A stretch of DNA of 64,000 nt, taken from an uncultured Gammaproteobacteria bacterium. Lineage in GTDB: Bacteria > Patescibacteriota > Patescibacteriia > UBA1558 > 2-01-FULL-52-15. Location of the stretch: the NCBI GenBank assembly GCA_964441335.1, contig CAYTUI010000001.1, positions 961 through 64,960 of the forward strand. Direction: 5' to 3'. Numbering within the stretch: the stretch's first letter is position 1; each line of letters starts with the position of its first letter. The notes under the pieces are model-generated. The model searched no databases and had not been told where the DNA came from. It worked only from the letters and a program-made list of their open reading frames with translations. Shown piece by piece: positions 13 to 52,680 of the stretch. Position numbers and translations under genes: made by a program.

Positions 13-96
13 GGAGGAGTCGCATAGCGGCCATTGCAACGGCTTGGAAAGCCGTGATCCGAAAGGGTCCCGCGGGTTCGAGTCCCGCCTCCTCCG
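13..96 (+). tRNA. tRNA-Ser (anticodon GGA), type II with long variable arm; CCA not encoded
   Basis: Cloverleaf read directly: acceptor GGAGGAG/CTCCTCC, anticodon stem ACGGC/GCCGT with loop TTGGAAA, long variable arm, T-arm GCGGG-TTCGAGT-CCCGC. Confidence 0.8.
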
Positions 97-219
97 CTTT
101 GGCAAAATTCATACCATTCGGTATTGAATTTTGACAACATGAGTGTGGGACTCGAAGGGCACGAGAGCGCGCAATGCCCAGGCCCGAATCGGAGTGAGGG
201 GAGTCCCGCCTCCTCCGCC

Positions 220-5413: not shown

Positions 5414-5530
5414 GTTAGTGAGTAGTTTGTAGTGAGTAGTGAGTAGTTTGCCCCGCCATTTCTTTATAATTATATGGTTAGCGGGATAGGAGTAGTTAGT
5501 AGTTTAGGGTTTAGAGTTTAGGATTTATAA
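5414..5530. repeat. GTAG-rich low-complexity tract (GTGAGTAGTTT / TAGTAGTTTAGGGTTTAG)
   Basis: Tandem degenerate GTAG/TAGTTT units seen directly; same style recurs at 8160-8230, 12500-12560 and 52570-52640. Confidence 0.7.
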
Positions 5531-5554: not shown

Positions 5555-5631
5555 CGCGGGGTAGAGCAGTCAGGCAGCTCGCCAGGCCCATAACCTGGAG
5601 GTCGCCGGTTCAAATCCGGCCCCCGCTACCA
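5555..5631 (+). tRNA. tRNA-Met (anticodon CAT), initiator-like (1:72 mismatch C.U, GG/CC in anticodon stem), CCA encoded
   Basis: Cloverleaf read directly: CGCGGGG-TA-GAGC..GCTC, anticodon loop CCCATAA, T-arm GCCGG-TTCAAAT-CCGGC, 3' CCCCGCTACCA. Confidence 0.8.
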
Positions 5632-5720
5632 CGCCATTCGCGAATGGCGTGGGCTACCCACATCGTTCCCGAACGACATGGGCTACCCATCACGCCATTC
5701 ACGAATGGCGTGAGTCCCCC
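5632..5720 (+). repeat. REP-like hairpin array directly abutting the tRNA-Met 3' end
   Basis: Perfect palindrome ACGCCATTCGCGAATGGCGT (centre TCGCGA), then two GGGCTACCCA-flanked hairpin units (GTGGG-CTA-CCCAC) and a second palindrome CACGCCATTCACGAATGGCGTG. Units contain CTAC and echo the tRNA GCTACCA end. Confidence 0.6.
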
Positions 5721-5811: not shown

Positions 5812-6078
5812 ATGTTTTATTTTTATATTATACAAAGTCAAAAAGACAAAAATTGGTTCTATAAGGGTCAAACCGGCGATTTGCGAAATAGAATGCGGCG
5901 CCATCATAGTGGGATGGTTAAATCAACCGCTAAATATTTGCCAGTTAGATTGGTTTATTATGAGGCTTATATAACTAGGAGAGCCGCTAAACAAAGAGAA
6001 TGGAGTGTAAAATATCATGGATCGGTTTCTGTCCCGTTACTTAAAAGAATAAAGAGAAGCCTTGAAGATAAGGACTAG
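5812..6078 (+). CDS. GIY-YIG nuclease superfamily protein (UPF0213/YhbQ-like), 88 aa
   Basis: FYFYIIQSQKDKNWFYKGQTGDLRNRMRRH matches the GIY-x10-YIG..R..H core; small stand-alone gene between two tRNA-Met genes. Confidence 0.7.
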   Translation: MFYFYIIQSQKDKNWFYKGQTGDLRNRMRRHHSGMVKSTAKYLPVRLVYYEAYITRRAAKQREWSVKYHGSVSVPLLKRIKRSLEDKD

Positions 6079-6120: not shown

Positions 6121-6197
6121 GGCGGGGTAGCTCAGTTGGTTAGAGCGCAGGACTCATAAGCCTGAGGTCGTGGGTTCGATTCCCACCCCCGCTACCA
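6121..6197 (+). tRNA. tRNA-Met/Ile2-type (anticodon CAT), elongator-like, CCA encoded
   Basis: GGCGGGG-TA-GCTC AGTTGGTTA GAGC, anticodon loop CTCATAA, T-arm GTGGG-TTCGATT-CCCAC, 3' CCCCGCTACCA. Confidence 0.8.
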
Positions 6198-6310
6198 CGT
6201 CGCTCGCGAGCGACGTGGGCTACCCACATCGTTCCCGAGCGACGTGGGCTACCCACATCGTTCCCGAGCGACGTGGGCTACCCACATCATTGCGAATGGC
6301 GTGAGCCACC
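6198..6310 (+). repeat. REP-like tandem array: palindrome CACGTCGCTCGCGAGCGACGTG plus 2.5 copies of 29-nt unit GGCTACCCACATCGTTCCCGAGCGACGTG
   Basis: Direct tandem repeats seen in sequence, no spacers (so not CRISPR). Each junction forms hairpin GTGGG-CTA-CCCAC containing CTAC. Confidence 0.65.
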
Positions 6311-8159: not shown

Positions 8160-8460
8160 TTAGAAGATAGGGAATAGTAGATAGAAGATGGGGAATAGGA
8201 GATGGAAGGTAGGGGATGGAAGATAGAAGATTGGGGTTGCCCCTCGTTCTTAAGTTCTTTGGTTCTTTCGTTCTGTGTTCTTCGGTTCTTTTGTTTTTAC
8301 GTTCTTTAGTTTTTAGATTATAGGTATTAGGTTCCCTCGTTCTTACGTTCTTAAGTTATTTTGTTCTTCGGTTCTTCAGTTCTTAAGTTCTTTAGTCCCT
8401 CCGTTCTTCCGTTCTTTCGTTCTTCGTTCTTCAGTTTCCCCGTCCCTCTGGTAACAAATG
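8160..8460. repeat. Composite low-complexity intergenic element: AGAAGATAG/TAGTAG purine tract followed by about 30 degenerate GTTCTT(A/C)(A/G) heptamer-like repeats
   Basis: Seen directly; the same two-part architecture recurs at 12500-12650. Confidence 0.7.
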
Positions 8461-10339: not shown

Positions 10340-10903
10340 TTACCACCAGACTTTTTTTATTTTGAAATAATAGCCGATTAAGTTAGAGACTGGATGAACC
10401 GCCAAAGTTATAATAACAGCCGCCCAGACAATTTCCGGAGTCCAGACGACTAATAGCCAGGTTAGTAGAAAAAAACCAACAATAAAATCTAGTTGGTCAA
10501 ACACCGGCCAAGCATTGCCGGATGTAATTTTAACCCGTCTTTTAATAAAACTTTTAACTAAATCTCCGCCTAAAGCTCCTAGGCCAGCCAAAAATCCGAA
10601 CAGCAAATAATTCAGCTCCCAGTAGTTAATCAAGCGTATACTGTCCAGCCAGCCTATTTGCTGGAAAAATGTCTGTATAATAACTGTTATCATGGCTACC
10701 AGCACGCCAATTATTAATCCCCGCCAAGTTTTACCTTTGCCCAATAAATCCTGGCCGAAAAGTTTTAATCCACCGTCAATCGGTTTAGCCAGTTGTTTCC
10801 AATAGCCAAGACGTTGGACAATCACTGGCGCCATGTTTGCTAAATAAACGGGCAACAGTAAATAAATGGTGGCCAGAATCAGCAGTATGTCTAATGTCAT
10901 CAA
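10340..10903 (-). CDS. CarS/CdsA-like (DUF46) CTP-dependent cytidylyltransferase-family membrane protein
   Basis: Multi-TM protein with DGG..FG...GKGKTWRG and GGDL.KS.KRR motifs resembling CDP-archaeol/CDP-diglyceride synthase-like DUF46 proteins. Confidence 0.5.
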   Translation of the reverse strand: MMTLDILLILATIYLLLPVYLANMAPVIVQRLGYWKQLAKPIDGGLKLFGQDLLGKGKTWRGLIIGVLVAMITVIIQTFFQQIGWLDSIRLINYWELNYLLFGFLAGLGALGGDLVKSFIKRRVKITSGNAWPVFDQLDFIVGFFLLTWLLVVWTPEIVWAAVIITLAVHPVSNLIGYYFKIKKVWW

Positions 10904-11982
10904 GCGTTTTTTAAAATTCTTAAAGTTTCAGCGGCTGTTTTTTCCCAGCGGAATTCTTGGCTACGTTTCAGTCCCTTGGTAATAAGGTCGGTCTGTAGGT
11001 TTTTGTCATAGTATAGTTTATTTATCGCCTCAACAACCTCGGGAATATTATTGGCGTCAACCAGTAGGGCGGCGTCCCCGGCAATTTCTGGCATACTGGC
11101 GGCACGATTGGTAATAATGGCTGTTTGGCAGGCCATAGCCTCAATTAAGCCAAAACAAAAGCCTTCATATTTTGCCAAATGGATATAAATAGCCGCTTCG
11201 GATATAAGTTTATATTTTTCTTCTTCATTAATCCAGCCGTGACGAATAACCTTTTCTTCCAGCCGAAACTGTTTGATCAGATTTTCAGCTTCTTGCCAGC
11301 CGCGGCTAGGATAACCGACTAAGTGTAAACTTATTCTTTTGCCCCAGCTAGTCTTTTGCATAGCCGCAAAAATCCTGATGAGTTGAGCAATATTTTTTTT
11401 ACTTTCCAGCCGCCCGACAAACAGCAGATAATTTTTTTTCTGTTTTGACGCTGGAGGAATTTTTTCGGGATTACTTAAACCAAGATAAGTTACCTGAATT
11501 TTGTCGGCGGCAATTTGATAGTACTTGATAATTTCGCTTTTAGAAAATTGTGAAACAGTGATAATTTGGCTACAAAATTTTTTGGCCCACTTAGCAGATA
11601 ATCTTTGGTAAGCTCGCCCCTTCCACGACAGATCGTTTTTATACGCTTCATAGGCCACGTCGTGCAGAGTGGTAACGGTTCTTTTGGGGGAGATGATAGG
11701 GATAATTGAAGCCGGGATAAATAAGACGTCAGGAGGGTTAAACAGCATTTCTAAAGACAGGCGAACTTGCGTCCAGAGATATTTAAAGGGCCAATATAGT
11801 CGGCGATATTCCACATTAGGACCCAAGTTCAGCAGTTCGGTTTCAGGAGCGCTATTGAAATAAAGCCTAAAAGTTATAGTTGGATCCAGTTTGGGCAGTT
11901 CCTTGATTAAAAAAAAGGAGTACCATTCTACCCCGGTTTTTTGTGGTTTGTTGGCCCTGGTCGCATCAATGCCTATAATCAT
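10900..11982 (-). CDS. Family GT4 glycosyltransferase
   Basis: C-terminal EX7E-type motif (YEGFCFGLIEAMACQTAII) and GT-B fold pattern. Confidence 0.85.
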   Translation of the reverse strand: MIIGIDATRANKPQKTGVEWYSFFLIKELPKLDPTITFRLYFNSAPETELLNLGPNVEYRRLYWPFKYLWTQVRLSLEMLFNPPDVLFIPASIIPIISPKRTVTTLHDVAYEAYKNDLSWKGRAYQRLSAKWAKKFCSQIITVSQFSKSEIIKYYQIAADKIQVTYLGLSNPEKIPPASKQKKNYLLFVGRLESKKNIAQLIRIFAAMQKTSWGKRISLHLVGYPSRGWQEAENLIKQFRLEEKVIRHGWINEEEKYKLISEAAIYIHLAKYEGFCFGLIEAMACQTAIITNRAASMPEIAGDAALLVDANNIPEVVEAINKLYYDKNLQTDLITKGLKRSQEFRWEKTAAETLRILKNA

Positions 11983-12348
11983 AATGAGGGTATTTTAGCA
12001 GACTATGGCTATAAAATGAAGCGTCCACAGATTGACAGCAGAGCATATTTTTAGTATCTTAACAACGTTATTTTGTTGCCGCTGTGTCCCTCGACTTCGC
12101 CATCAGCCATTGGCTGATCGGGACAAGCGGACGTAACGTACATGATAATAGTAAGTTTGTAAGTTAGCAGTATTATTGATATTTGATGCCGCTGTGGCGG
12201 AACCCCACTTCACTGAAGTTTCGTGGGGCAGGTTGGCAGACTCCGTATCGCTAAAGCTTTGCGGGATAGGCGTGCACGACTCTTGTCAGAGGCGAATAGG
12301 CAAAATCGCGCCTTGATAAGTGTATTATGTAAATTGTTATCATTTGTT

Positions 12349-12435
12349 GCCGCGGTGGCGGAACTGGTAGACGCGTAGGTCTCAAAAACCTATAGGAGTT
12401 CTCCTGTGAGAGTTCGAGTCTCTCCCGCGGCACCA
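12349..12435 (+). tRNA. tRNA-Leu (anticodon CAA), type II, CCA encoded
   Basis: GCCGCGG-TG-GCG..CGC, anticodon stem TAGGT/ACCTA with loop CTCAAAA, long variable arm, T-arm GAGAG-TTCGAGT-CTCTC, 3' CCGCGGCACCA. Confidence 0.8.
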
Positions 12436-12499
12436 AATGGAAGTAATATACACAGGTTCGCCTGCCCGCCGTAGCTTTAGCGTAGGCGGGACCCCGACC

Positions 12500-12650
12500 A
12501 GCGGCACCATTTAGTTAGTAGCTAGTAGTTAGTAGTCAGTAGCTTGCAGCCAGTAGCTTATGGAGTAGAGCTCGTAGTCCTTAAGTTCGTCAGTTCTTAA
12601 GTTCATCGGTTCATAGGTTATTAAGCATTAAGACTTAATACTTAATTATT
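12500..12650. repeat. Composite GTAG-rich (AGTTAGTAGCTAGTAG...) then GTTCTTAAGTTC-rich low-complexity tract
   Basis: Seen directly; same architecture as 8160-8460. Confidence 0.7.
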
Positions 12651-12656
12651 ATAATC

Positions 12657-13073
12657 ATGGATATTAAACTCTGGGTGGCTACTAAAGCTTTTATTGTTTA
12701 TCAGGGCAAGCTTTTGGTTATTAGGGAATCGTCAAAATATAGTGACGGAACTCAAACGGGTAAGTACGGAGAAGTGGGCGGACGGGTGACGCCTGGTGAG
12801 AATTTTCGCGACAGTTTAATCAGAGAGGTAAAAGAAGAAACTGGTCTTGATATTAAAATTGGTAAACCATTTTTCGTCAACGAATGGCGGCCGGTCGTCA
12901 GAGGGGAGCAATGGCAAATAGTAGGGATTTTTTTTGAATGCTTTGCCGATACTGATGAAGTTGTTTTAAGCGAGGATCATGATGATTACAAATGGATTGA
13001 GCCGGCTAACTGGCAAAACGAAGGAATGATTGAGAACTTACGGCCGGTTTTTGAAGCTTATTTAAAGAAATAG
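12657..13073 (+). CDS. NUDIX hydrolase
   Basis: Nudix box GGRVTPGENFRDSLIREVKEETGL (GX5EX7REVXEETG). Confidence 0.85.
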   Translation: MDIKLWVATKAFIVYQGKLLVIRESSKYSDGTQTGKYGEVGGRVTPGENFRDSLIREVKEETGLDIKIGKPFFVNEWRPVVRGEQWQIVGIFFECFADTDEVVLSEDHDDYKWIEPANWQNEGMIENLRPVFEAYLKK

Positions 13074-27439: not shown

Positions 27440-28114
27440 ATGACAGTTAATAGAAAATATGAATTCGCCGTAATTGCTACCGACATTGCTATTTTCGCCG
27501 TAATTGATGGTAAATTACAGGTATTAATGATTGAGATGGTGAAACCACCTTTTACCGGTCAGTGGGCTTTACCGGGCGGACTGATAAAAATCACAGAGAC
27601 CGTTGAAAATGCGGCTAAGCGCACTTTGCTGGAAAAGACTGGCGTCCAGGATGTTTATCTGGAGCAGCTCTTTACTTTTGGTGAGGTTAACCGTGATCCT
27701 TTTGGGAGAGTGGTATCGGTAGCTTATTTTGTTTTAATTTCTGATCCAACCAAGTTAAAACTAAAGGCCGGACGAGAATATAGAAATATAGGCTGGAAAT
27801 CAGTTGATCGGTTGCCTGTTTTGGCTTACGATCACAAGAAAATAGTAGCGGTAGCTATTGAGCGTTTACGATCTAAATTATCTTATACTAATATTGTTTA
27901 TGGTCTATTGCCGAAAGAATTTACTTTAACAGAATTCCAAAGTCTATATGAATTAATTTTAGATCAGCAGTTTGATAAAAGAAATTTCCGTAAAAAAATG
28001 TTGTCATTAGGACTAATAAAGAAGTCAGGACGAAAACAGAGTGGAGTGGCTAACCGACCAGCCAACCTTTTTTCCTTTTCCAGCCGCTCCCCAAAAGTAG
28101 TAGAAATATTATAA
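27440..28114 (+). CDS. nrtR: NrtR-type regulator: Nudix-like ADP-ribose-binding domain fused to C-terminal winged helix
   Basis: Degenerate Nudix fold (QWALPGG...E....AAKR.L.EKTG) plus ~90-aa C-terminal domain; sits directly upstream of pnuC-nadR. A paralog lies at 40501. Confidence 0.7.
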   Translation: MTVNRKYEFAVIATDIAIFAVIDGKLQVLMIEMVKPPFTGQWALPGGLIKITETVENAAKRTLLEKTGVQDVYLEQLFTFGEVNRDPFGRVVSVAYFVLISDPTKLKLKAGREYRNIGWKSVDRLPVLAYDHKKIVAVAIERLRSKLSYTNIVYGLLPKEFTLTEFQSLYELILDQQFDKRNFRKKMLSLGLIKKSGRKQSGVANRPANLFSFSSRSPKVVEIL

Positions 28115-29957: not shown

Positions 29958-30875
29958 ATGAAGAAGCCTTTCGGTCTCTACGATCCGTCTTTGGTCGGGA
30001 TAAACTACAAGCCGCGTATTGAAGAAGCGCGGGCAGAGGGTCGCGCGGCAGGTCTCAGTGATGCCTCAACGGATACCTTCCGGACCATGCTGGCGCTGAT
30101 CGATTTCCAGCAGTGCTTCACACGTCCGGGTATGCCGCTGTGTGTACCGGGGGCCGTGGATGATATCCGACGGATCATCGCCTGGATTCTGACCCATCCG
30201 GAGGAGATCACGCGCGTTCTGATTACCCTGGATTCTCACAGCGCCTTGCAGGTCTTCACCCGCTGGTGGTGGAAACATCGTGACGGCTATCATCCGGATG
30301 ACTTTACCGATATCCTCACCGACCGTGTGGAATCTGGTATATGGATTCCGCAGGTGATGCCGAAGTGGTCGAGAACCTACCCGCGCCGTCTTGAAGAGAG
30401 CGGACAGGCTCCGCTCAAGATCTGGCCCCAGCACGGCGAGGTGGGTAGTGAGGGCTGGCAGTTGGACCCGGCGTTGATCGAGGTGATCGAGTGGCTGTGC
30501 GCCGCCCGCAACATTGCCCCCACCTATCTCTTCAAGGGCAATGTGCCGGAGTCCGAGTACTACGGAATTTTCCGTCCCTGCATTCTGGTGCCGACTCACC
30601 CGGATGGGGGATGGAACTATCCACTACTCAACTGGTTCCCGACCTTCGACCGCGTCATTGAAGCTGGTGAAGCGGAGGAATTCTGCGTTGGCGAATCCAT
30701 GAAACAGCAGATCGCTCACTACCGCGAGGTTGATCCCGAGGTTCTCAAGAAGATCGTCTTCTTGCGCGACTGCACCTCCACTGTTCTGCCTGAGAACCGA
30801 GGCCGAGCGGATGAGCTGCTGGACACGATGAAGCACGTGGGCATCCAGGTGTCTACCACAACTGAGTTGGTCTAG
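29958..30875 (+). CDS. Isochorismatase-family hydrolase (nicotinamidase PncA-like), GC-rich
   Basis: ALIDFQQCF..G.PLCVPGA pattern resembles the isochorismatase/PncA N-terminal catalytic-Asp region; later FCVGES Cys. First gene of the GC-rich NAD island. Confidence 0.55.
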   Translation: MKKPFGLYDPSLVGINYKPRIEEARAEGRAAGLSDASTDTFRTMLALIDFQQCFTRPGMPLCVPGAVDDIRRIIAWILTHPEEITRVLITLDSHSALQVFTRWWWKHRDGYHPDDFTDILTDRVESGIWIPQVMPKWSRTYPRRLEESGQAPLKIWPQHGEVGSEGWQLDPALIEVIEWLCAARNIAPTYLFKGNVPESEYYGIFRPCILVPTHPDGGWNYPLLNWFPTFDRVIEAGEAEEFCVGESMKQQIAHYREVDPEVLKKIVFLRDCTSTVLPENRGRADELLDTMKHVGIQVSTTTELV

Positions 30876-31060
30876 TTGCTGGCTGGTTGGCAGACTGCTT
30901 GGGATGTTAAGCCGGGCTTGTGGGAGGGTCACGTCAGTGACCCTCCCACACCTAATTTTTTAGAAACTTGTTCCCAACAATCGTTGGAGACAAATTTCTA
31001 ACCTTGATTTTTTTGAGGTTATGCACCTTTCCAAGTCAACAACAAACAAGGAGGTAGCCG

Positions 31061-32449
31061 ATGCCTAAGGTGGCGGTTTTCGGAGGCAGTTTCAATCCGC
31101 CGGGTCAGCATCATTTTCTGATCGTCAGGGAATTGTTAGAGCGGGGCGGCTTTAATCAAGTGATTGTAGTGCCCTGCGGCCCGCGGCCGGATAAATTGAC
31201 TACAAACGATATCGATTCTGTCTCCAGAGCCACTATGGTCGATCTGACTTTCCGCGGCCTGGCGAACGTTGAAGTCGACCTGTTCGATCTGGAGAACGGT
31301 ACCTTTACCAGAACTCACCAGCTGGACAAGCGCTATGGCCAACGAGGTGATCTCTGGCATGTGGTCGGCACTGATTTGATCAGTGGCGGAGCCGTCGGTC
31401 AGTCCCAGATTCAGCGAGTTTGGAAAAACGGATCGGAAATTTGGAGTAGCCTCCAGTTTCTGGTCCTGGTGCGCAACGGGTACAAGCTGAATCAGGCAGA
31501 TTTGCCGCCGCGCAGTCAGGTTCAGCAACTGGATCTGGACGGTGCCAGCTCGGATATTCGGACGGCAGCCATGAATCACCGGTCGTTGGCCGGACTGGTC
31601 AGACCGGAGGTAGCCAGCTACATCGAGCGTCATGAACTCTATCGCGGTTCCTGGCCGCGGCGGACCACTCGCTTGCGCCTGGTGCAACCGCAGATCCTGG
31701 TCTTTCACGATCAGCGCAATGAGCGTGCGGTGGAAGTTGCTGCCGCTTTGCGCCGCTGGGAGTCGGATGACCCGAATCTGGTGGTGGCCGTTGGTGGAGA
31801 TGGCACTATGCTGCGCGCCATTCATCAGCACTGGCAGAGACATTTACCGTTTATCGGTATCAATGTCGGACACCGGGGGTTTCTGCTGAATAACCTGGAA
31901 GGCGATCAGCTGGCGGAAGTGGTTTCACAGGGTCTGGAGGTCCATCGTTCGCCGCTGTTGTACGTTGAGACCGTTACCAATCAGGGAGCTGAGCAACGGT
32001 CTTTGGTGGCCAACGATGCTTGGGTGCAGTGTCAGCCTGGCACTACGGGCTGGTTGGAGGTAAAAATTGACGGTCAGGTTCGCCTGCCACGTCTGGTCTC
32101 CGACGGTGTTCTGGTTTCAACCGCCGCCGGTTCTACCGCTTATGCCAGAGCCATGGGAGCAACGCCCATACCGGTTGGCACGCCGGAGCTAGTCCTAGTC
32201 GGTAACAACGTTCTGGAACCACCCAACTGGCGCTCGGCCTACCTGCCGCTGGACTCGCTGATTCAAATCAGGAGTCTCGATCAGGCTAGGCCGACCAAAA
32301 GGCCGATTCTGGGCTTTGTGGACGGTTTGTCTCTGGGCGAGATTCGGCAGTTGGATATCCGCGCCAGTCGGATAGCGGCTATTGAGCTAGCTTTCTTGCC
32401 CGGTTATAACCTCGGACACAAGCTGGCCGAGATCCAATTCCCTTCCTAG
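31061..32449 (+). CDS. Fusion protein: N-terminal NMN/NaMN adenylyltransferase (NadD/NadM-like) plus C-terminal NAD kinase (NadK)
   Basis: N-term GGSFNPPGQHH (HxGH-class); C-term GGDGTML, GINVGHRGFL and DGVLVSTAAGSTAYARAMG NAD-kinase motifs. Confidence 0.8.
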   Translation: MPKVAVFGGSFNPPGQHHFLIVRELLERGGFNQVIVVPCGPRPDKLTTNDIDSVSRATMVDLTFRGLANVEVDLFDLENGTFTRTHQLDKRYGQRGDLWHVVGTDLISGGAVGQSQIQRVWKNGSEIWSSLQFLVLVRNGYKLNQADLPPRSQVQQLDLDGASSDIRTAAMNHRSLAGLVRPEVASYIERHELYRGSWPRRTTRLRLVQPQILVFHDQRNERAVEVAAALRRWESDDPNLVVAVGGDGTMLRAIHQHWQRHLPFIGINVGHRGFLLNNLEGDQLAEVVSQGLEVHRSPLLYVETVTNQGAEQRSLVANDAWVQCQPGTTGWLEVKIDGQVRLPRLVSDGVLVSTAAGSTAYARAMGATPIPVGTPELVLVGNNVLEPPNWRSAYLPLDSLIQIRSLDQARPTKRPILGFVDGLSLGEIRQLDIRASRIAAIELAFLPGYNLGHKLAEIQFPS

Positions 32450-32459
32450 TCGTTGAAAG

Positions 32460-32491
32460 CCGCAGGGACGAGCAGCAGCTCGTCCCTGCGG
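32460..32491 (+). terminator. Hairpin terminator CCGCAGGGACGAGC-AGC-AGCTCGTCCCTGCGG
   Basis: 14-bp perfect stem; followed by AT-rich spacer with a second palindrome CCTTGTTTCAAACAAGG. Confidence 0.55.
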
Positions 32492-32600
32492 ACCCAATTT
32501 TGAAATAAAGAATTGCCAGTTTTATAAGTTGTCAGTTCCTTGTTTCAAACAAGGCCAAGTTCTTTGTAAATCTAAGAGATCAAAACCAAGGAGGAAAAAC

Positions 32601-33188
32601 GTGGAACGTACGGTGATTCATAGCGGTTTTTTGCAGCTGGAAGTTGTGGCAACACCACAGGGCCAGAGGGAGCTGGTGCGTACCACTGATTCTCTTTGCC
32701 TGTTGATTTTCGATCAGCTACGCAATCGGCTGATCTTAGTTCGACAGCCGCGGCCTTCACAGATGTCTGAACTCAATCCCGATAGTCCCCTGGCCAATCG
32801 CGAGGGGCTGATCACCGAGTGCTGCGCCGGCCGTTTCGACGGTCGGTATTCTCCGCTGGAGTTGGCGGTCAAGGAAGCCGAGGAGGAAACTGGTATTCAG
32901 GTCAATCCGGAGAATGTCGAGCTGCTGAACGGCGGGCGGCCCATGGCTGTGTCCGCCGGGGTCATCACGGAGTTATCCTATCTGGCGTACGTGAGGATCA
33001 CTTCAGATACCTCCGGTCTCGACCAGAAGTTGCACGGTCGGGCAGATGAGGGTGAGGAGATTCGTCTGGTCAGTCTGGACGCGGATCCTCGTTATCTGCA
33101 GGTGTACTTGGGCGGAGCTTGTCAGGACATTCGTGTCTTCACTCTGCTGCAGTATCATCTCAACAAGATGGAATGTCAGGTGTCCTGA
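32601..33188 (+). CDS. NUDIX hydrolase, ADP-ribose pyrophosphatase-like (start GTG at 32601 after AAGGAGG)
   Basis: Nudix box AGRFDGRYSPLELAVKEAEEETGI; strong SD 7 nt upstream of GTG. ORF track lists 32529..33188. Confidence 0.7.
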   Translation: MERTVIHSGFLQLEVVATPQGQRELVRTTDSLCLLIFDQLRNRLILVRQPRPSQMSELNPDSPLANREGLITECCAGRFDGRYSPLELAVKEAEEETGIQVNPENVELLNGGRPMAVSAGVITELSYLAYVRITSDTSGLDQKLHGRADEGEEIRLVSLDADPRYLQVYLGGACQDIRVFTLLQYHLNKMECQVS

Positions 33189-33212
33189 CAGTTTCCAGGA
33201 GAGGAGTTTTCA

Positions 33213-34838
33213 GTGAGGAGTCTGTATCAAATCGTTCAGCAGATGTTTCCCCTGCAGCGTCTACCCTGGGATGAGTACTTCGCGGCCATGGCGCAGTCCG
33301 ACTTCAAGCTCGGGCGGCACCAGATTCCGGCCACCAAGTCATTCTTTATCAGGTCGGCGCCGTTTGGCGGATCGTTTGCGCTGCTGGGCGGTATTACCGA
33401 AGCCCTACGAACCATCAACGAGTTGCGCTTTGACGCAGATTTCCGGGCGATCATGGAGGAATTCGGCTACGAAGCCGATTTCCTGGACTGGTTGCAATCG
33501 GAAGAACGGTTGAAGGTTCAGGTCTACGCGCCGCCGGAAGGCAGCGTTTTCTTCCCCAGCGAGCCCGTGGTCACTTTTCGTGGGCCGTTGGCGCACATTC
33601 GGCTGGTCGAAGGCATGATGATTGAGGCGCTGAACTTCTCTACCTTGTCACTGACCAAATGGCAGCGACTGGTCAGGGTGGTGCGCCCCGGCTCTGTGTT
33701 GGAGTTCGCTCGTCGGCGATCGCAGCATCATCTCCGATCCTCGCTTTACGGTTTGCTGGCCGGTTGCCGGCAGATCAGCAACAGCGAAGCGGCCCGTCTG
33801 ATCGGCGTAAAGCCGGTCGGTACCATGGGTCATGAGTGGATGCAGTCGTTCGGCGATGTCCGCGAGGCCTTCGATGCCTGGCTCAAGGTCAATCCGCATA
33901 AGCCTGTTGGCTTGGTGGATACCTTGCAGTGTCTGGAGATCGATTTTCCGGCTTGGCTGGAGGCGGTCTACGAGCAGCGCGAGGTTGTAAAGGCCGCTGA
34001 CAGTCCGATCTGGGGCTGGCGCAACGATTCGGGTGACCTTGCCTACCTGACTATTGAGCAGTACATTCGCTTTTGGAAGCATCTGCTGTCTCAGGATCAG
34101 TGGTTTGCCGACCGCATGCACATTGTGCTGACCAACGATCTGGATGAGTACTCTTCGGAGGAAATCATCCAGCAGATTCGTAGCCAGGCCGGAGCCGCCG
34201 GTTTGGATGCCGAGGATCTGCTCCGACGGATCATTTGGGCGGCCGGTACCAAGCCGGGCACCTGCTATGATCAGCCGGCTTTGGGCGGCGTAGCCAAGCT
34301 GATGGAAGTCGATGGTCATGGCTGCATCAAGCTGGCTTTCGATGCCGACGGTAATCCGGGCGCCAAGACCTCGATTCCGGGGTTCAATCGCTCAGCGCTG
34401 ATCCGCGATCGTGATTCCGGTGAAGTTCACTGCCTGTTGATCTATCCGGCCGAGGACACTACTTTCCATCTGTTTGAGCATGATGGAGAAGGTTACTTCG
34501 GTGACGGGCGGAAGGGAGACGCTTGGGAGACCATTACCGCACATCATCCGGACACGCCCGGTTCGGAGCTGCACATCAAGAACTATCTGGTTCAGGGACG
34601 ACAGCAGCTGGTCTTTGATACGATCGATCAGAACGGCCTGACCGACGAGTGGATAGAGGACACTGTACAGTCGGTGGCTGAACGGGTTGTGAGGGAAATT
34701 GATTCCCTGCACTGGACTGTCAGCCGTCTCCGCAAGCCTCATCGGGTCAAGGTCTCTGTCACAGAAGGTCTGTTTGAGCAGCGGACGAATCTGATTCGTA
34801 CCCGCTGTCTGCGAACGGACAAGATGTGGAAGCAGTAG
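33213..34838 (+). CDS. pncB: Nicotinate phosphoribosyltransferase (PncB/NAPRT family, long form)
   Basis: N-terminal DEYFAAMAQ...SFFIRSAPFGGSFALLGGI..AL..L.ELRF and VYAPPEGSVFFPSEPVVTFRGPLAHIRLVE..MIEALNF.TL match type II PRTase NAPRTase conservation. Confidence 0.75.
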   Translation: MRSLYQIVQQMFPLQRLPWDEYFAAMAQSDFKLGRHQIPATKSFFIRSAPFGGSFALLGGITEALRTINELRFDADFRAIMEEFGYEADFLDWLQSEERLKVQVYAPPEGSVFFPSEPVVTFRGPLAHIRLVEGMMIEALNFSTLSLTKWQRLVRVVRPGSVLEFARRRSQHHLRSSLYGLLAGCRQISNSEAARLIGVKPVGTMGHEWMQSFGDVREAFDAWLKVNPHKPVGLVDTLQCLEIDFPAWLEAVYEQREVVKAADSPIWGWRNDSGDLAYLTIEQYIRFWKHLLSQDQWFADRMHIVLTNDLDEYSSEEIIQQIRSQAGAAGLDAEDLLRRIIWAAGTKPGTCYDQPALGGVAKLMEVDGHGCIKLAFDADGNPGAKTSIPGFNRSALIRDRDSGEVHCLLIYPAEDTTFHLFEHDGEGYFGDGRKGDAWETITAHHPDTPGSELHIKNYLVQGRQQLVFDTIDQNGLTDEWIEDTVQSVAERVVREIDSLHWTVSRLRKPHRVKVSVTEGLFEQRTNLIRTRCLRTDKMWKQ

Positions 34839-34970
34839 AGCTGCTACAAGCCGGTGGTCACCAGCAGGTGACCACCGGCCCTTACTTCAGCCTTGTCATA
34901 AAGAAAATGAAAGGGTTGAAGAGAGGCTAGTTCATTCAATGTCTATTCTAAAACCAAGGAGGTGCTCTAA

Positions 34971-35927
34971 ATGAGTTCTGCTCAGCCGATCGCTCACGGT
35001 AGCGGTCAAATGGGGGCGCAGTCTATCTCCATTCAGGTATCCACGCGGGAGCGTTGCAACGCCGGTTGTCGTTTTTGCATTTCGCGAACAACGCCGGGAG
35101 TGGAAACACCGGGCAATCCTCATGAAGTTAAGTTCTGCGATGAGCCGCGTCTGCAGGTCGGGTTGAACTATGCCCGGCAGTTGGGTGCGACGCATGCTAT
35201 CCTGACATCACGAGCTGATCCTTCGCAGGAGGACCCAAGGTATCTGCACCGACTGATCAGTACCAGTCGTCAGTTCTTGCCGCTAGTGGACATGCATACC
35301 AATGGTTTTCTTTGGCTGCCTGGTAAGCCGCAAGCCGATGATCTGTCTATACTGGTGGTTTCGGGTCTGACCATGCTTACTCTGTCGATCGCTTCTTTCG
35401 ATCAAAATCAGAATAGAGAGCTGATGATGATCCGCGAAAGCGGTGCCGGTTTGATCCGTCGGGCTCGGGATTTGGGTCTGCTGGTCCGCTGCTCTTTGGT
35501 TGTCAATTCCCAGGGAGTCAACGATTACCAGGGGGTTATCAACTACATCAAACAGGCCGGCAACCTGGGAGCCCACATGGTGGTCGTTAGAGAAGTCTGG
35601 CGACCGGAAGTGTATGGCGATTTCCAGCCCGAAGTGCTGGACTGGAACAACTGCAACTGGGTGGATATCGGTCCGATCCAGAGTCAGTTTATCCAGGCCG
35701 CCGGCCAGAGGGACAACCCTTACGGCTTGCAGCTTCGTGACCCCTTGCCCTGGGGCACACCGGTTATGGTGATGGGCGGAGTGTTCGACGACCCCAATCA
35801 TGGGGTCAATATCACTTTCGCTCGTTGCGAGGAGGGTACCAGGGGCTCGACCATTAAGAGCATCGTCCATAAGCCCGATGGTCACGGTTATCGCAACTGG
35901 GATCACAACGGCGATATCCTCTACTGA
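34971..35927 (+). CDS. Radical SAM domain protein (CX3CX2C)
   Basis: RERCNAGCRFCISRT cluster-binding motif near N-terminus; no further family assignment possible by eye. Confidence 0.6.
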   Translation: MSSAQPIAHGSGQMGAQSISIQVSTRERCNAGCRFCISRTTPGVETPGNPHEVKFCDEPRLQVGLNYARQLGATHAILTSRADPSQEDPRYLHRLISTSRQFLPLVDMHTNGFLWLPGKPQADDLSILVVSGLTMLTLSIASFDQNQNRELMMIRESGAGLIRRARDLGLLVRCSLVVNSQGVNDYQGVINYIKQAGNLGAHMVVVREVWRPEVYGDFQPEVLDWNNCNWVDIGPIQSQFIQAAGQRDNPYGLQLRDPLPWGTPVMVMGGVFDDPNHGVNITFARCEEGTRGSTIKSIVHKPDGHGYRNWDHNGDILY

Positions 35928-36057
35928 TTAGGTGGAGGACGGGGCATCTGCGTCGGCGCAGATGCCCCCTTTCCCGAGGTCTTATCATCTATAGATAAGG
36001 TCTTAGGAGAGTTCAGTTCTTTAACACGCAACCATCTAAAACCAAGGAGGAGAGGGA

Positions 36058-38082: not shown

Positions 38083-38088
38083 AGGTTT

Positions 38089-38131
38089 GACCCCGCCCCA
38101 ACACTTTTGTGTCATGGGCGGGGTCTTTTTT
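38089..38131 (+). terminator. Rho-independent terminator closing the GC-rich NAD island
   Basis: GACCCCGCCC-loop-GGGCGGGGTC followed by TTTTTT. Confidence 0.7.
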
Positions 38132-38312
38132 AATTTGATAGACCTTCGTACCGCCAGCCATTGGCTGATCGGGGCTTCGGTTTGGGGGCCTTAGATTTGT
38201 TTATTTTGTTAAATATATAAGCTTCAATGCTTAGCGCAGAAGTAGTTTGATCATCCTTGACAGCCTTAATTTTACCAGCTTAAATTAAGTTATAATTTGT
38301 AGTTATAAAAAT

Positions 38313-40132: not shown

Positions 40133-40208
40133 CGGGGTGTGGCGCAGTTGGTAGCGCGCATGCATGGGGTGCATGAGGCCGTGGGTTCAAGTCCCGCCAC
40201 CCCGACCA
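40133..40208 (+). tRNA. tRNA-Pro (anticodon GGG), CCA encoded
   Basis: CGGGGTG-TG-GCGC AGTTGGTA GCGC, anticodon stem CATGC/GCATG with loop ATGGGGT, T-arm GTGGG-TTCAAGT-CCCGC, 3' CACCCCGACCA. Confidence 0.8.
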
Positions 40209-40369
40209 AGTGATTCTGAAAAAATTCACAGGAGATGTAGTTGCGGGTTTCGCCCAAAGGGCGACCCGGTCGAATGACCGGGCAAGTCCTGTCACCCCGA
40301 CCATTCGACTTTGTTCAGCTTAGCTTGACCAAGAAAATTATATAACAATATTAAATCTCGTTTGATGGA

Positions 40370-40500: not shown

Positions 40501-41202
40501 ATGAAGTGTAAATATAACACTAGAAATATGACTCGACCTAAAAGTATTGACGTTAAAAAATTAAAGTTTGCTATTATTGCTGTTGATGTGGCTGTCTTTC
40601 GGATTAACAACGGGATTTTAGAAGTGTTGCTGGGGGAGGTTATGAATCCTCACTTTAGAAACAGACCTGGTCTGATCGGTGGAGTTATCGAGACAACCGA
40701 AACAGCCGAGCAGGCAGTTGTTAATCATTTAAAAAATAAGACGGGCGTCAAAGTTGATTTTATTGAACAACTTCAGACATTTAGTAGAATTGACAGGGAT
40801 CCCCGCGGTCGCGTTTTGTCGGTTGCCTATTTGGCTATTATCAATAAGATAAGCCCTGTCGGAGGAAATATTAGAACCGTTTGGGTTCCAATTAACCAGG
40901 CCAAAAATTTAGCCTATGACCACGATGAAATATTGCGGGTAGCTGGTGAAAGACTGCGGGCTAAATTTGGTTATACTAATATTGCCCAGCATTTTTTACC
41001 GTTGAATTTTACTTTAACCGAACTGCAACAGGTTTATCAGATTGTTATGAATCAAACTATAGACAAGAGGAATTTTAGACGTAAAGTATTGAATGTCGGT
41101 TTAGTAGCACCGACCGGCAGAACAACGACTAAAGGCACCAAGAAACCTGCGCAACTGTTCAGATTCGCATCGTTGAAGCCAAAAATCATTGAACTGTTTT
41201 AA
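40501..41202 (+). CDS. Second NrtR-like regulator (Nudix-like domain plus C-terminal wHTH), paralog of 27440..28114
   Basis: Same architecture and alignable motifs (GG.IE..E.....V...L..KTGV, AYDH..I...A.ERLR.K..YTNI, FTLTELQ.VY..I....DKRNFR.KVL..GL). Confidence 0.7.
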   Translation: MKCKYNTRNMTRPKSIDVKKLKFAIIAVDVAVFRINNGILEVLLGEVMNPHFRNRPGLIGGVIETTETAEQAVVNHLKNKTGVKVDFIEQLQTFSRIDRDPRGRVLSVAYLAIINKISPVGGNIRTVWVPINQAKNLAYDHDEILRVAGERLRAKFGYTNIAQHFLPLNFTLTELQQVYQIVMNQTIDKRNFRRKVLNVGLVAPTGRTTTKGTKKPAQLFRFASLKPKIIELF

Positions 41203-42245: not shown

Positions 42246-42288
42246 AGCTACGCTACGTTAGACCAACGAAAGAAGGAGGACGAGTACT

Positions 42289-43452: not shown

Positions 43453-43498
43453 CTCCTTAACCTGACAACCGTAAATCCTAAACCAAAGAGAGGTGACT

Positions 43499-44884: not shown

Positions 44885-44913
44885 ATGCGTGAACGCGAAA
44901 GGAGATAGTGCAG

Positions 44914-46083: not shown

Positions 46084-46111
46084 ATCCAACGCGGTTCTGG
46101 AGTAACCTTGG

Positions 46112-52559: not shown

Positions 52560-52680
52560 TTGAATTATGGATTGAAAGAGGTAGTAGGAAGTAGGTAGTA
52601 GGAAGTAGGTAGTAGCTAGTAGGTAGTAGGTTATCGCCCAGTTGGTGGTGGGCGAAGGTTGTGGGCGGGGGTTCCGATTA
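52560..52680. repeat. GTAG/CTAC-rich low-complexity tract plus terminator hairpin (CGCCCA..TGGGCG on minus strand) downstream of topA
   Basis: AGGTAGTAGGAAGTAGGTAGTAG... repeats seen directly. Confidence 0.65.

What the first reader, a model, noticed from the sequence alone, without database searches (positions are those of the whole stretch)
12060..12520. tRNA-Leu(CAA) locus with two upstream partial duplications of the tRNA 5' end and a downstream 3'-end echo, plus a 19-nt motif shared with the NAD-island boundary
TTGTTGCCGC(T/G)GTG... appears three times (12074, 12189, 12349); only the last is the full tRNA. The second copy shares 15 of 16 nt of the tRNA 5' end and then diverges into an unrelated hairpin-containing sequence. 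Downstream, GCGGCACCA (the tRNA 3' end) recurs at 12501-12509. The 19-mer CAGCCATTGGCTGATCGGG (near-palindrome) at 12104-12122 recurs exactly at 38155-38173, about 25 bp after the terminator that closes the GC-rich NAD island. Together these suggest repeated recombination or integration activity at this tRNA and a shared boundary motif.
Basis: seen in the sequence. Interest (0 to 1): 0.5.

Follow-up and report, generated by a model that had tools for sequence, protein, structure and literature searches.

The report
Working tRNA nested inside broken tRNA
The "partial tRNA copies" are the scattered pieces of this bacterial lineage's original leucine tRNA gene, which has been split by small GC-rich hairpin inserts and now encloses a second, complete leucine tRNA gene; the same nested layout recurs in a few related groundwater bacteria.

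Summary
The repeats are real and non-random. They are not copies of the resident tRNA-Leu(CAA) at 12349-12435 ("type B").

They are co-linear pieces of a different tRNA-Leu(CAA), "type A". Type A is the uninterrupted native gene at this locus in the closest relatives. In the window it survives at 12188-12310 and 12455-12509. It is cut by four 19-30 nt GC-rich hairpin inserts of one family, and type B sits where its variable arm should be.

The first copy (12078-12086) is a 9-nt stub plus a hairpin, placed where the native 5' end normally lies behind a conserved promoter.

The same nested layout occurs in three other Patescibacteria lineages. Hairpins sit at the same anticodon-loop and T-loop positions. 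Each lineage's nearest sampled relatives have a plain gene.

Between two genomes that share the layout, outer pieces plus hairpins are 106/109 identical, against 162/199 for flanking DNA.

Best reading: a gene-replacement locus in which only the inner tRNA decodes. It is unresolved whether the outer shell is a scar or a selected processing scaffold.

Integrase att scars are not supported. The 19-mer is the core of one hairpin, seen twice; a boundary role is not supported.

The parts
12032..12060 (+). Conserved sigma-70-type promoter (TTGACA-17-TATCTT) pointing at the tRNA locus
   Evidence: 10 of 12 matches. The same TTGACA-17-TAT(C/T/G)(T/G)T promoter sits upstream of the tRNA-Leu in every relative read. 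Activity is inferred.
12078..12086 (+). 5' stub GCCGCTGTG, positions 1-9 of the native type A tRNA-Leu. It starts 18 nt after the -10 box, about where the native 5' end lies in plain loci.
   Evidence: Similar stub-plus-hairpin arrangements occur in L201 layer 1 and in L109. Similarity to the tRNA beyond about 11 nt is weak (z=2.5).
12087..12127 (+). Hairpin that follows the stub. Outer stem GTCCC/GGGAC, inner palindrome ATCAGCC-ATT-GGCTGAT, tail CAAG. It contains the 19-mer at 12104-12122.
   Evidence: Fold (-25.6 kcal/mol, z=-3.0; I3).
12172..12187 (+). Leader of the outer copy (ATTATTGATATTTGAT), similar to the inner tRNA's leader at 12333-12348
   Evidence: repeat D1, 32 nt at 81% identity including the first 16 nt of the tRNA.
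12188..12202 (+). Outer (type A) tRNA-Leu positions 1-15: acceptor 5' strand and start of the D arm
   Evidence: 15/15 identical to the native tRNA of relative L109. Co-linear block score z=11.6.
12203..12232 (+). Hairpin insert 1 in the D loop (CCCCAC...GTGGGG-CAGG)
   Evidence: Resembles the insert CCCACC...GGCGGG-CAGG of L201 layer 1. L197 and L203 have an insert at the same D-loop position.
12233..12240 (+). Outer tRNA positions 16-23 (TTGGCAGA, D loop)
   Evidence: 8/8 identical.
12241..12270 (+). Hairpin insert 2 (CTCCGTATCGCTAAAGCTTTGCGGGATAGG). It is an inverted repeat of the T-loop insert.
   Evidence: I2, 24 nt at 75% complementarity with 12459-12482. The two pair in the minimum-energy folds.
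12271..12281 (+). Outer tRNA positions 24-34: D stem 3' strand, anticodon stem 5' strand, first loop bases
   Evidence: 10/11 identical.
12282..12300 (+). Hairpin insert H1 in the anticodon loop between positions 33 and 34 (CTTGTC-AGA-GGCGAA-TAGG)
   Evidence: Same position and a similar sequence in L113, in L159 and in both L201 layers.
12301..12310 (+). Outer tRNA: anticodon CAA, rest of the loop, anticodon stem 3' strand (CAAAATCGCG)
   Evidence: 8/8 for CAAAATCG. The stem keeps 4 of 5 pairs (read from the sequence).
12311..12348 (+). Spacer and leader of the inner tRNA. Together with the inner gene and its trailer it replaces the outer variable arm and T stem 5' strand.
   Evidence: No strong promoter match was found here.
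12349..12435 (+). Inner, complete tRNA-Leu(CAA), type B. It is the only complete tRNA called at this locus and so the only copy able to decode.
   Evidence: ARAGORN and Rfam, 58 bits. It differs from type A in the anticodon stem, variable arm and T stem. The closest tRNA found is L058, another Patescibacterium, at 92%.
12436..12454 (+). Trailer of the inner tRNA, partly complementary to its leader
   Evidence: I1, 28 nt at 79% complementarity. Fold.
12455..12460 (+). Outer tRNA T stem/T loop remnant GGTTCG
   Evidence: block 12453-12459, 5/7. Same arrangement in L113 and L201.
12461..12489 (-). Hairpin insert H2 in the T loop, between positions 57 and 58, same family in inverted orientation. 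The boundary is ambiguous by 1 nt.
   Evidence: strict family pattern on the minus strand at 12461-12490. A similar insert sits at the same position in L113 and L201.
12490..12509 (+). Outer tRNA 3' end: T loop 3' part, T stem 3' strand, acceptor 3' strand CAGCGGC, then ACCA
   Evidence: 20/20 identical to the native tRNA of L116 and L109, and in the same place relative to the NUDIX gene as in L116. Score z=8.2. Complementary 7/7 to GCCGCTG at 12188 and at 12078.
38155..38173 (+). Second exact copy of the 19-mer, about 27 nt after the terminator hairpin that follows nadE
   Evidence: The flanks are only loosely similar (GAC(C)TTCG...CC).

Best explanation
This is a layered gene-replacement locus for tRNA-Leu(CAA).

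Shown:
- The lineage's native gene (type A) is still in place between the glycosyltransferase operon and the NUDIX gene, but it is in pieces.
- It is cut by four members of one GC-rich hairpin family (roughly YCCRCC-loop-GGYGGR-YARG). They lie in the D loop, the D stem, the anticodon loop (33/34) and the T loop (57/58).
- Its variable arm and T stem 5' strand are replaced by a 144-nt segment that carries a second, complete tRNA-Leu(CAA), type B.
- Upstream, a 9-nt stub plus another hairpin marks the original 5' end behind the conserved promoter.

Inferred working:
- The conserved promoter reads through the stub, the outer 5' pieces, the inner gene and the outer 3' piece as one precursor.
- Only the inner tRNA can be matured into a decoding tRNA. 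The outer copy cannot decode, because a hairpin splits its anticodon loop and it lacks a variable arm and a T stem.
- The outer halves can still close around the inner pre-tRNA, through the 7-bp acceptor pairing and a roughly 20-24 bp helix between a hairpin insert and its inverted copy.

Inferred origin:
- A tRNA-bearing segment landed in the resident gene. Disrupting an essential single-copy tRNA is tolerable only if the insert brings a working copy.
- Target-biased insertion of the hairpin repeats followed.
- Unequal crossing-over between the similar 5' parts produced the extra upstream layer.
For: Identity of the pieces
- In relative L116 (NUDIX 93% identical) an uninterrupted type A tRNA runs from at least the D stem to the CCA end and lies directly upstream of NUDIX. 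Its last 20 nt equal window 12490-12509.
- L109 gives the full type A gene.
- Block alignment places type A positions 1-15, 16-23, 24-34, 35-42 and 67-86 in order in the window, with 61/62 matches. Scores are z=11.6 (5' side) and z=8.2 (3' side) against shuffles.
- The inner gene is a distinct allele.

Recurrence
- The same nested layout occurs in L113-115, in L201/L202 (two outer 5' layers) and in L159. All carry a hairpin at 33/34; L113 and L201 also carry one at 57/58.
- The nearest sampled relatives of the window and of L113/L201 have plain genes.
- Only 3 of 96 distinct tRNA-Leu(CAA) loci had an upstream 5' copy and only 3 a downstream 3' copy by the 12-mer criterion.

Hairpin targeting
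- In L113 both hairpins sit at GGACT^C(A/G)AA, once in the anticodon loop and once on the reverse complement of the T loop. That accounts for their opposite orientations.

Extra layers and promoter
- In L201 the spacers between layers are visibly similar, as unequal crossing-over predicts.
- A conserved promoter lies upstream of the outermost layer in all loci read.

Folding
- Minimum-energy folds close the outer acceptor stem and a long inverted-hairpin helix around an inner cloverleaf.
Against: - A dead scar should drift. Yet between L113 and L201 (GT gene 82% identical at DNA level) the outer pieces plus hairpins are 106/109 identical, against 162/199 for flanking non-tRNA DNA (Fisher p=2.8e-5). 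Two of the three differences restore an acceptor pair, T6:A67 to C6:G67.
- The window's outer pieces match the tRNA of a relative whose GT gene is only 70% identical at DNA level at 61 of 62 aligned positions.
- No enzyme for hairpin insertion or for delivery of the inner segment was identified.
- Apparently independent gains in two clades call for a targeted mechanism that I cannot name.
- Co-transcription and processing are inferred. No expression data were available.
Confidence: 0.5

Rival explanations
1. The outer shell is a selected, functional RNA rather than a scar. On this view the locus encodes a 'tRNA within a tRNA-like scaffold'. The outer halves and their complementary hairpins form a closing helix that directs processing or stabilisation of the inner pre-tRNA, much like the leader-trailer stems of rRNA operons cut by RNase III. 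Alternatively, once the inner tRNA is cut out, the two outer halves stay paired as a non-decoding tRNA-like molecule ending in ACCA.
For: - Outer pieces and hairpins are far more conserved than flanking DNA between L113 and L201 (106/109 against 162/199, p=2.8e-5). One change is a compensatory acceptor-pair swap.
- The discriminator A and the CCA are kept at every outer 3' end.
- In the window's H1 stem, two C-to-U changes keep G-U pairs. G-U pairs are tolerated in RNA.
- Predicted long-range helices: 19 bp in L113 and 24 nt at 75% complementarity in the window.
Against: - The nearest sampled relatives do without it.
- The partner of the T-loop hairpin differs between genomes: the D-stem insert in the window, the anticodon-loop insert in L113. 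L159 has no T-loop hairpin.
- The outermost layer in L201/L202 is visibly decaying.
- The covariation could predate the disruption. The high conservation could also reflect recent exchange of the whole locus.
- No expression data.
Confidence: 0.3
2. The partial copies are att-site scars left by integrase-driven integration and decay of mobile elements at tRNA-Leu. The 19-mer would be a shared junction motif.
For: - tRNA genes are classic integration targets. Anticodon-loop and T-loop positions are the usual crossover sites (general knowledge).
- 3' echoes starting at the T loop follow tRNA-Leu, tRNA-Pro and tRNA-Ser.
- The window has 27.7 kb between tRNA-Leu and tRNA-Pro, against about 0.4-3 kb in relatives.
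- The two 19-mers are direct repeats about 26 kb apart.
Against: - None of the larger ORFs tested from 12.6 to 40 kb has an integrase or recombinase Pfam hit.
- One crossover cannot give native 5' part, complete foreign tRNA, native 3' part.
- The intervals between copies are 50-160 nt.
- The inserts belong to one hairpin family, not to element ends.
- The left edge of the GC-rich island lacks the 19-mer.
- No viral contig carries the 19-mer, the type B core or the H1 context.
Confidence: 0.08
3. The outer gene is an intron-containing or split tRNA that is spliced into a second working tRNA-Leu. That would make it a bacterial counterpart of archaeal multi-intron or split tRNA genes, or a carrier of group I introns.
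For: - The inserts leave the exon-like blocks intact and in order.
- One insert lies in the anticodon loop at 33/34. The Patescibacteria group I intron survey lists 33/34 and 34/35 as common bacterial tRNA insertion sites (PMC13011429).
Against: - Positions 43-59 (last anticodon-stem bases, variable arm, start of the T stem) are absent, so no complete tRNA can be assembled.
- The inserts are 19-30 nt, far too short for group I introns, and Rfam finds nothing but the inner tRNA.
- I could draw no bulge-helix-bulge at the 33/34 junction by hand. The 5' side has 3 nt and the 3' side 10 nt between the stems.
Confidence: 0.03
4. The repeats are chance matches, conserved promoter elements, or an assembly chimera.
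For: Short tRNA-end motifs can recur by chance. Metagenome contigs often break at tRNA genes.
Against: - Block scores lie 8-12 standard deviations above shuffles.
- Independent assemblies give the identical 674 nt.
- Plain relatives lack the copies, so they are not general promoter elements.
Confidence: 0.02

Closest known systems
tRNA gene fragments flanking integrated genomic islands or prophages (att duplications)
   Same: Partial tRNA copies lie next to a complete tRNA. The breakpoints are in the anticodon loop and the T loop. The locus varies between relatives.
   Different: No integrase and no element body. The fragments belong to a different allele that encloses the complete gene on both sides. 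The fragments are themselves cut by short hairpins.
Disrupted tRNA genes of Archaea (multiple non-canonical introns, split and permuted tRNAs)
   Same: Several short inserts at unusual positions leave ordered exon-like blocks. Complementary GC-rich sequences could bring the halves together.
   Different: The host is a bacterium. No bulge-helix-bulge could be drawn at the 33/34 junction. The exon set is incomplete. A whole second tRNA sits inside.
Group I introns in Patescibacteria tRNA genes (PMC13011429)
   Same: Same phylum. Insertion inside the anticodon loop (33/34) of a tRNA gene.
   Different: The insert is 19-30 nt with no group I core (no Rfam hit), and further inserts lie outside the anticodon loop.
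REP-like or MITE-like palindromic repeats
   Same: A family of short GC-rich hairpins inserted in either orientation. In L113 both sit at the same flanking motif, GGACT^C. A family member also lies inside the roughly 130-nt terminal inverted repeats of a small element in a Shapirobacteria genome (L039).
   Different: In this 64-kb window they are confined to one tRNA locus, apart from one related copy at 38155. No transposase was linked to them.
Free-standing GIY-YIG homing endonuclease genes in tRNA regions (phage T4 SegB is the example I recall; not checked here)
   Same: Small GIY-YIG genes sit next to tRNA genes in the window and in the relatives where one was found. In L203 and L197 one follows a 5' stub of tRNA-Leu, and in L203 the intact gene follows it.
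   Different: No such gene lies within the window's tRNA-Leu locus. No cleavage site or homing has been shown.
Leader-trailer processing stems of rRNA operons (RNase III)
   Same: A long helix, formed by sequences on either side, encloses the RNA gene in the predicted precursor.
   Different: Prediction only. The pairing partners differ between genomes. Such stems are not known for single bacterial tRNA genes.

Membership tests
Integrase att duplication at a tRNA gene | Tyrosine or serine recombinase gene next to the tRNA or inside the flanked segment | tested here: not met
   Pfam on the larger ORFs from 9.4 to 48 kb gave no recombinase. Small ORFs were not all tested.
Integrase att duplication at a tRNA gene | Direct repeat of part of the resident tRNA at the far end of an inserted element | tested here: not met
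   The echo starts 54 nt after the tRNA end and matches another allele 20/20. No further copy of the 3' 12-, 20- or 30-mer exists in 64 kb.
Integrase att duplication at a tRNA gene | Empty site in relatives with one att copy | tested here: inconclusive
   Relatives have tRNA-Leu and tRNA-Pro/Asn 0.4-3 kb apart, against 27.7 kb here.
Archaeal-type intron-containing or split tRNA | Bulge-helix-bulge motif at each exon-intron junction | tested here: not met
   Checked by hand at 33/34 in the window and in L113. No 4-bp central helix flanked by 3-nt bulges is possible.
Archaeal-type intron-containing or split tRNA | The exons together make a complete tRNA | tested here: not met
   Positions 43-59 are missing or replaced in the window.
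Archaeal-type intron-containing or split tRNA | Splicing endonuclease and ligase present in the genome | not testable with these tools
   Only 64 kb of the genome is available.
Group I intron in a tRNA | Conserved catalytic core detectable by the covariance model, length about 200 nt or more | tested here: not met
   A permissive Rfam search of 11900-12700 found only the tRNA. The inserts are 19-30 nt.
REP/MITE-like palindromic repeat family | Short imperfect palindromes sharing a consensus | tested here: met
   The strict pattern matches the T-loop inserts of the window, L113 and L201, the anticodon-loop inserts of L113, L159 and L201, and the L201 and L039 copies. The window's other three inserts resemble it by eye.
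REP/MITE-like palindromic repeat family | Many dispersed copies in the genome | tested here: not met
   In 64 kb, the strict pattern and a BLAST of the intergenic region find copies only at the tRNA-Leu locus, plus the 19-mer at 38155. The rest of the genome was not available.
REP/MITE-like palindromic repeat family | Cognate transposase (RAYT or IS200/IS605 type) | not tested
   None was seen among the ORFs scanned. The genome is incomplete here.
Free-standing homing endonuclease cassette | Endonuclease ORF inside or beside the disrupted target | tested here: not met
   There is none at 11983-12656. It is met in L203 and L197. The window's GIY-YIG gene lies at 5812-6078, between the two tRNA-Met genes.
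tRNA pseudogene | Cannot form a functional cloverleaf or anticodon loop | tested here: met
   ARAGORN and Rfam do not call it. The anticodon loop is split, the variable arm is absent and the T stem keeps 2 of 5 pairs.
tRNA pseudogene | Evolves at the neutral rate | tested here: not met
   L113 against L201: 106/109 compared with 162/199 in flanks, p=2.8e-5. This rests on one pair of genomes, so it is suggestive only.

The most novel reading that the evidence does not exclude
A hairpin-bounded cassette that carries a full tRNA-Leu(CAA) invades native tRNA-Leu(CAA) genes in Patescibacteria, possibly in a homing-like way. The native gene's halves are then kept under selection as an RNA shell around the new tRNA. 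That would be a bacterial 'tRNA-in-tRNA' gene architecture. Its outer part would serve either as a processing stem or as a non-decoding, CCA-ended tRNA-like molecule.
Probability: 0.3. Interest if true: 0.85.

Novelty: new variant of a known kind. Interest (0 to 1): 0.62.

Why it matters
- Disrupted tRNA genes (multiple introns, split halves) are regarded as an archaeal speciality. In bacteria only group I introns are recognised in tRNAs.
- Here a bacterial tRNA gene is cut at four or five places by one hairpin family and wraps a complete replacement gene.
- The layout recurs in several lineages, with signs of constraint on the outer pieces.
- If the outer shell is functional, this is a new way of building and processing a tRNA precursor.
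- If it is a scar, it records how an essential single-copy tRNA gene can be replaced in place, and it reveals a hairpin repeat with a preference for tRNA loops.
- In practice, such loci break assemblies and mislead tRNA annotation in reduced genomes.

Tried and rejected
- **Known RNA families.** Gathering-threshold Rfam on the window and permissive Rfam on 11900-12700 found only tRNAs. ARAGORN found no tmRNA. I first suspected a tmRNA, SRP RNA or RNase P RNA closed by the GCCGCTG/CAGCGGC pairing; none fits.
- **Genome collection scan.** The type B pattern gave 98 loci from many phyla that share only the tRNA itself. The window's species is not among them.
- **Closest relative.** Its contigs stop 32 nt from the GT gene and inside the tRNA, so its full intergenic region could not be read.
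- **Viral contigs.** There were no matches to the 19-mer, the type B core or the anticodon-loop hairpin context. The T-loop junction 16-mer gave 44 matches, almost all in GC-rich phages, that look like chance. One lies in a phage tRNA array and is unrelated.
- **Loose searches.** A loose search for split anticodon loops returned mostly noise and no new case.
- **Stub region as a shrunken tRNA.** Treating 12078-12131 as a whole reduced tRNA copy is only weakly supported (z=2.5). I keep only the 9-nt stub plus hairpin.
- **Bulge-helix-bulge and group I readings** were rejected, as set out in the membership tests.
- **Literature.** Searches found no description of nested bacterial tRNA genes.
Full report
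**1. Observation**

The region is the 674-nt gap between a glycosyltransferase (GT) gene (10900-11982, minus strand) and a NUDIX gene (12657-13073, plus strand).

- ARAGORN and Rfam find one tRNA-Leu(CAA) at 12349-12435 and no other known RNA.
- The 15-mer TTTG(T/A)TGCCGC(T/G)GTG occurs at 12072, 12182 and 12343 only.
- GCCGCTGTGGCGGAAC (12188-12203) matches the tRNA start at 15/16.
- CCAGCGGCACCA (12498-12509) matches its end at 11/12.
- The 19-mer is exact at 12104 and 38155.
- The identical 674 nt turn up in independent assemblies of three samples.

**2. What the copies are**

GT homologues place the organism near Candidatus Komeilibacteria, in the Patescibacteria.

A close relative (NUDIX 93% identical, GT 91%) has a contig, L116, that starts inside a tRNA-Leu(CAA) lying directly upstream of NUDIX. 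That tRNA, "type A", differs from the window's resident gene, "type B". Its last 20 nt equal window 12490-12509. A 71% relative, L109, gives the whole type A gene. Its 3' 66 nt are identical to L116.

Aligning type A to the window with cheap long gaps places it in ordered blocks:

| Window | Type A positions | Matches |
|---|---|---|
| 12188-12202 | 1-15 | 15/15 |
| 12233-12240 | 16-23 | 8/8 |
| 12271-12281 | 24-34 | 10/11 |
| 12301-12308 | 35-42 | 8/8 |
| 12455-12460 | GGTTCG of the T arm | see part list |
| 12490-12509 | 67-86 | 20/20 |

Against dinucleotide shuffles the 5' side scores z=11.6 and the 3' side z=8.2.

Between the blocks lie inserts of 30, 30, 19 and about 30 nt. Positions 43-59 are replaced by 12309-12452, which contains the complete type B gene.

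So the second "partial duplication" and the "3' echo" are two ends of one broken native gene that encloses the working one. Types A and B differ in the anticodon stem, variable arm and T stem. The closest tRNA to type B among those fetched comes from another Patescibacterium (92%).

**3. The same layout elsewhere**

| Locus | Layout |
|---|---|
| L113-115 (MAG GCA_964588865.1; GT 60% identical to the window) | Outer GCCGCCG...GGACT, 19-nt hairpin, CAAAATCCT, spacer, complete inner tRNA-Leu(CAA), GTCGGTTCG, 19-nt hairpin, AGTCCGAC, 29-nt hairpin, CGGCGGCACCA |
| L201/L202 (GT 88% to L113) | Two outer 5' layers in tandem, the same inner tRNA, and a 3' piece |
| L159 (another groundwater contig) | Outer 5' half with a 30-nt hairpin at 33/34, an inner tRNA, then tandem 3'-end units |
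| L203 and L197 | Promoter, 15-nt stub plus hairpins, a decayed 5' half, a GIY-YIG gene; in L203 an intact tRNA-Leu follows (the L197 contig ends inside the GIY-YIG gene) |
| L116, L109, L112, L198/199, L200 | Plain genes (L109 has an upstream stub plus hairpin) |

- By GT identity the nested genomes fall in two clades, each with plain relatives. The outer gene resembles a plain tRNA-Leu of related genomes in each case: for the window its own clade's type A; for L201 that of L112; for L113 that of L198, with the acceptor pair as the only difference from L112.
- Plain to nested is therefore the likely direction, probably more than once.
The copies are not general promoter elements.

**4. The inserts are one hairpin family**

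- Oriented alike they read roughly YCCRCC-loop-GGYGGR-YARG, with either an AGA triloop or a 14-19 nt extension.
- The anticodon-loop insert is always in the plus orientation. The T-loop insert is inverted.
- In L113 the two are 15/19 inverted repeats, and both sit at GGACT^C(A/G)AA. This motif occurs in the anticodon loop and, on the other strand, in the T loop. Target-biased insertion would explain both position and orientation. This step is inferred.
- A family member also lies inside the roughly 130-nt terminal inverted repeats of an 800-nt element in a Shapirobacteria genome, L039.
- In the 64-kb window the family is confined to this locus.

**5. The first copy and the 19-mer**

- A conserved promoter, TTGACA-17-TATCTT (12032-12060), precedes the locus in all relatives read.
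- The stub GCCGCTGTG (12078-12086) starts 18 nt after the -10 box. That is about where the native 5' end lies in plain loci.
- It is followed by a 41-nt hairpin (12087-12127) whose inner palindrome is the 19-mer.
- L201 layer 1 and L109 have a stub plus hairpin at the same position.
- The second 19-mer copy (38155) lies just after the nadE terminator. Its flanks are only loosely similar.
- The left edge of the GC-rich island (about 29.95 kb) has no copy. None occurs in any other genome fetched or in viral contigs.
- Two copies cannot establish a boundary role.

**6. Scar or functional shell?**

For constraint:
- L113 and L201 share the layout, and their GT genes are 82% identical at DNA level. 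Outer pieces plus hairpins are 106/109 identical, against 162/199 for flanking non-tRNA DNA (p=2.8e-5). Two of the three differences convert T6:A67 to C6:G67.
- Minimum-energy folds close the outer acceptor stem and a long helix between a hairpin insert and its inverted copy, around an inner cloverleaf (z=-6.7 and -4.1).

Against constraint:
- Close relatives lack the shell.
- The pairing partners differ between genomes.
- L159 has no T-loop hairpin.
- The outermost layer in L201/L202 is decaying.
- The conservation rests on a single genome pair. It could reflect recent exchange of the locus.

**7. How it most likely works**

Shown:
- Only the inner gene is a complete tRNA.
- The outer one has a split anticodon loop, no variable arm and a T stem with 2 of 5 pairs.

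Inferred:
- One precursor is transcribed from the conserved promoter.
- RNase P and 3' processing release the inner tRNA.
- The outer halves can pair around it.

Origin (inferred):
- An insert that disrupts an essential tRNA survives only if it brings a working copy.
- Hairpin repeats then accumulate at their preferred motifs.
- Unequal crossing-over between the similar 5' parts adds layers.
- GIY-YIG genes lie next to tRNA genes in the window and in six of the relatives' loci read, and inside the L203 and L197 versions of this locus. They are a candidate source of the breaks, but nothing here tests that.

**8. Rivals**

- Integrase scars fit poorly: no recombinase, intervals of tens of bases, and enclosure on both sides by another allele.
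- A spliced second tRNA is unlikely: the exon set is incomplete, there is no group I core, and no bulge-helix-bulge can be drawn.
- Chance and assembly artefact are excluded.

**9. Novelty**

- I found no description of nested bacterial tRNA genes.
- The one relevant paper reports group I introns in Patescibacteria tRNA anticodon loops (PMC13011429). That is a different phenomenon.
- I file this as a new variant of disrupted or replaced tRNA genes. There is a real chance (about 0.3) that it is a selected tRNA-in-tRNA architecture.

**10. Limits**

- Only 64 kb of the genome was available.
- The nearest relative is not assembled across the locus.
- No expression data were available.
- The collection scans were exhausted, so the census of nested loci is incomplete.

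Noticed in passing
window 13-97 and 201-221: tRNA-Ser(GGA) is followed about 100 nt downstream by an 18/18 copy of its T-loop-to-acceptor 3' end (201-218). That copy continues into an encoded CCA, which the complete gene lacks. It looks like another older-allele remnant, as at tRNA-Leu. The upstream side is cut off by the window start.
   Followed up: partly
window 40133-40208 and 40280-40303: tRNA-Pro(GGG) is followed, after about 70 nt holding GC-rich hairpins, by GGGCAAGTCCTGTCACCCCGACCA. This is a diverged copy of its own T-loop-to-CCA end, with the last 11 nt exact. No 5' piece was found upstream (z=-0.9).
   Followed up: partly
window 5625-5712 and 6191-6288: Both tRNA-Met genes run straight into 29-nt tandem repeats (3.0 and 3.4 copies). 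Each unit starts with the tRNA's own 3' end, GCTACC(C)A, followed by a hairpin. Relatives L112 and L113 lack these repeats.
   Followed up: partly
window 5812-6078; L112, L113, L197, L198, L200, L203: A small GIY-YIG nuclease gene (88 aa, Pfam E=1.6e-11) sits between the two tRNA-Met genes. In the relatives where one was found, similar small GIY-YIG genes also lie beside tRNA genes but at different sites (Met-Met, Pro-Asn, and inside the tRNA-Leu locus in L203 and L197). This suggests a mobile, tRNA-associated nuclease gene.
   Followed up: partly
window 12510-40132: tRNA-Leu and tRNA-Pro/Asn are 27.7 kb apart here but about 0.4-3 kb apart in relatives L112, L113 and L200. The extra DNA holds duplicated copper/metal modules (HMA-DsbD-cupredoxin twice, two P-type ATPases, BlaI/BlaR-like pair, DsbA) and NAD salvage genes (NrtR, PnuC, NadR-like). 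No recombinase was found.
   Followed up: partly
window 29958-38127 and about 42000-46100: Two blocks of 55-63% GC lie in a roughly 40% GC genome. The first encodes NAD metabolism (NaPRTase, NAD synthase, NAD kinase/NMNAT-like). The second includes adenylosuccinate synthetase. They are likely recent foreign acquisitions.
   Followed up: no
window 27440-28114 and 40501-41202: Two NrtR-type regulators (NUDIX plus winged helix) are present. One lies upstream of the NAD genes and one right after tRNA-Asn.
   Followed up: no
window 12512-12558, 5416-5527, 52610-52629; 12572-12619 and 8246-8436: Intergenic low-complexity repeats recur: stop-codon-rich TAGTTAGTAG-type 7/14-nt repeats and GTTCTTAA-type 8-nt repeats.
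   Followed up: no
L159 578-665: Downstream of its tRNA-Leu(CAA) are three tandem units of about 29 nt. Each carries GGCT, a T stem 3' strand and an acceptor 3' strand; the first two end in ACCA. The first unit's acceptor strand pairs 6/7 with the outer 5' half upstream, and the second repeats the inner tRNA's own acceptor strand.
   Followed up: partly
L039 6575-7400: An element of about 800 nt with roughly 130-nt terminal inverted repeats made of several hairpins, one of them from the hairpin family described here. It encloses what I read from the sequence as a small helix-turn-helix gene (not checked against a domain library).
   Followed up: no
L001-L009 contig ends (window 12406, 12434, 12473): Several short contigs of the same species end inside the locus, at the inner tRNA and in the T-loop hairpin. 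Strain-level variation at the locus is a possible cause.
   Followed up: no
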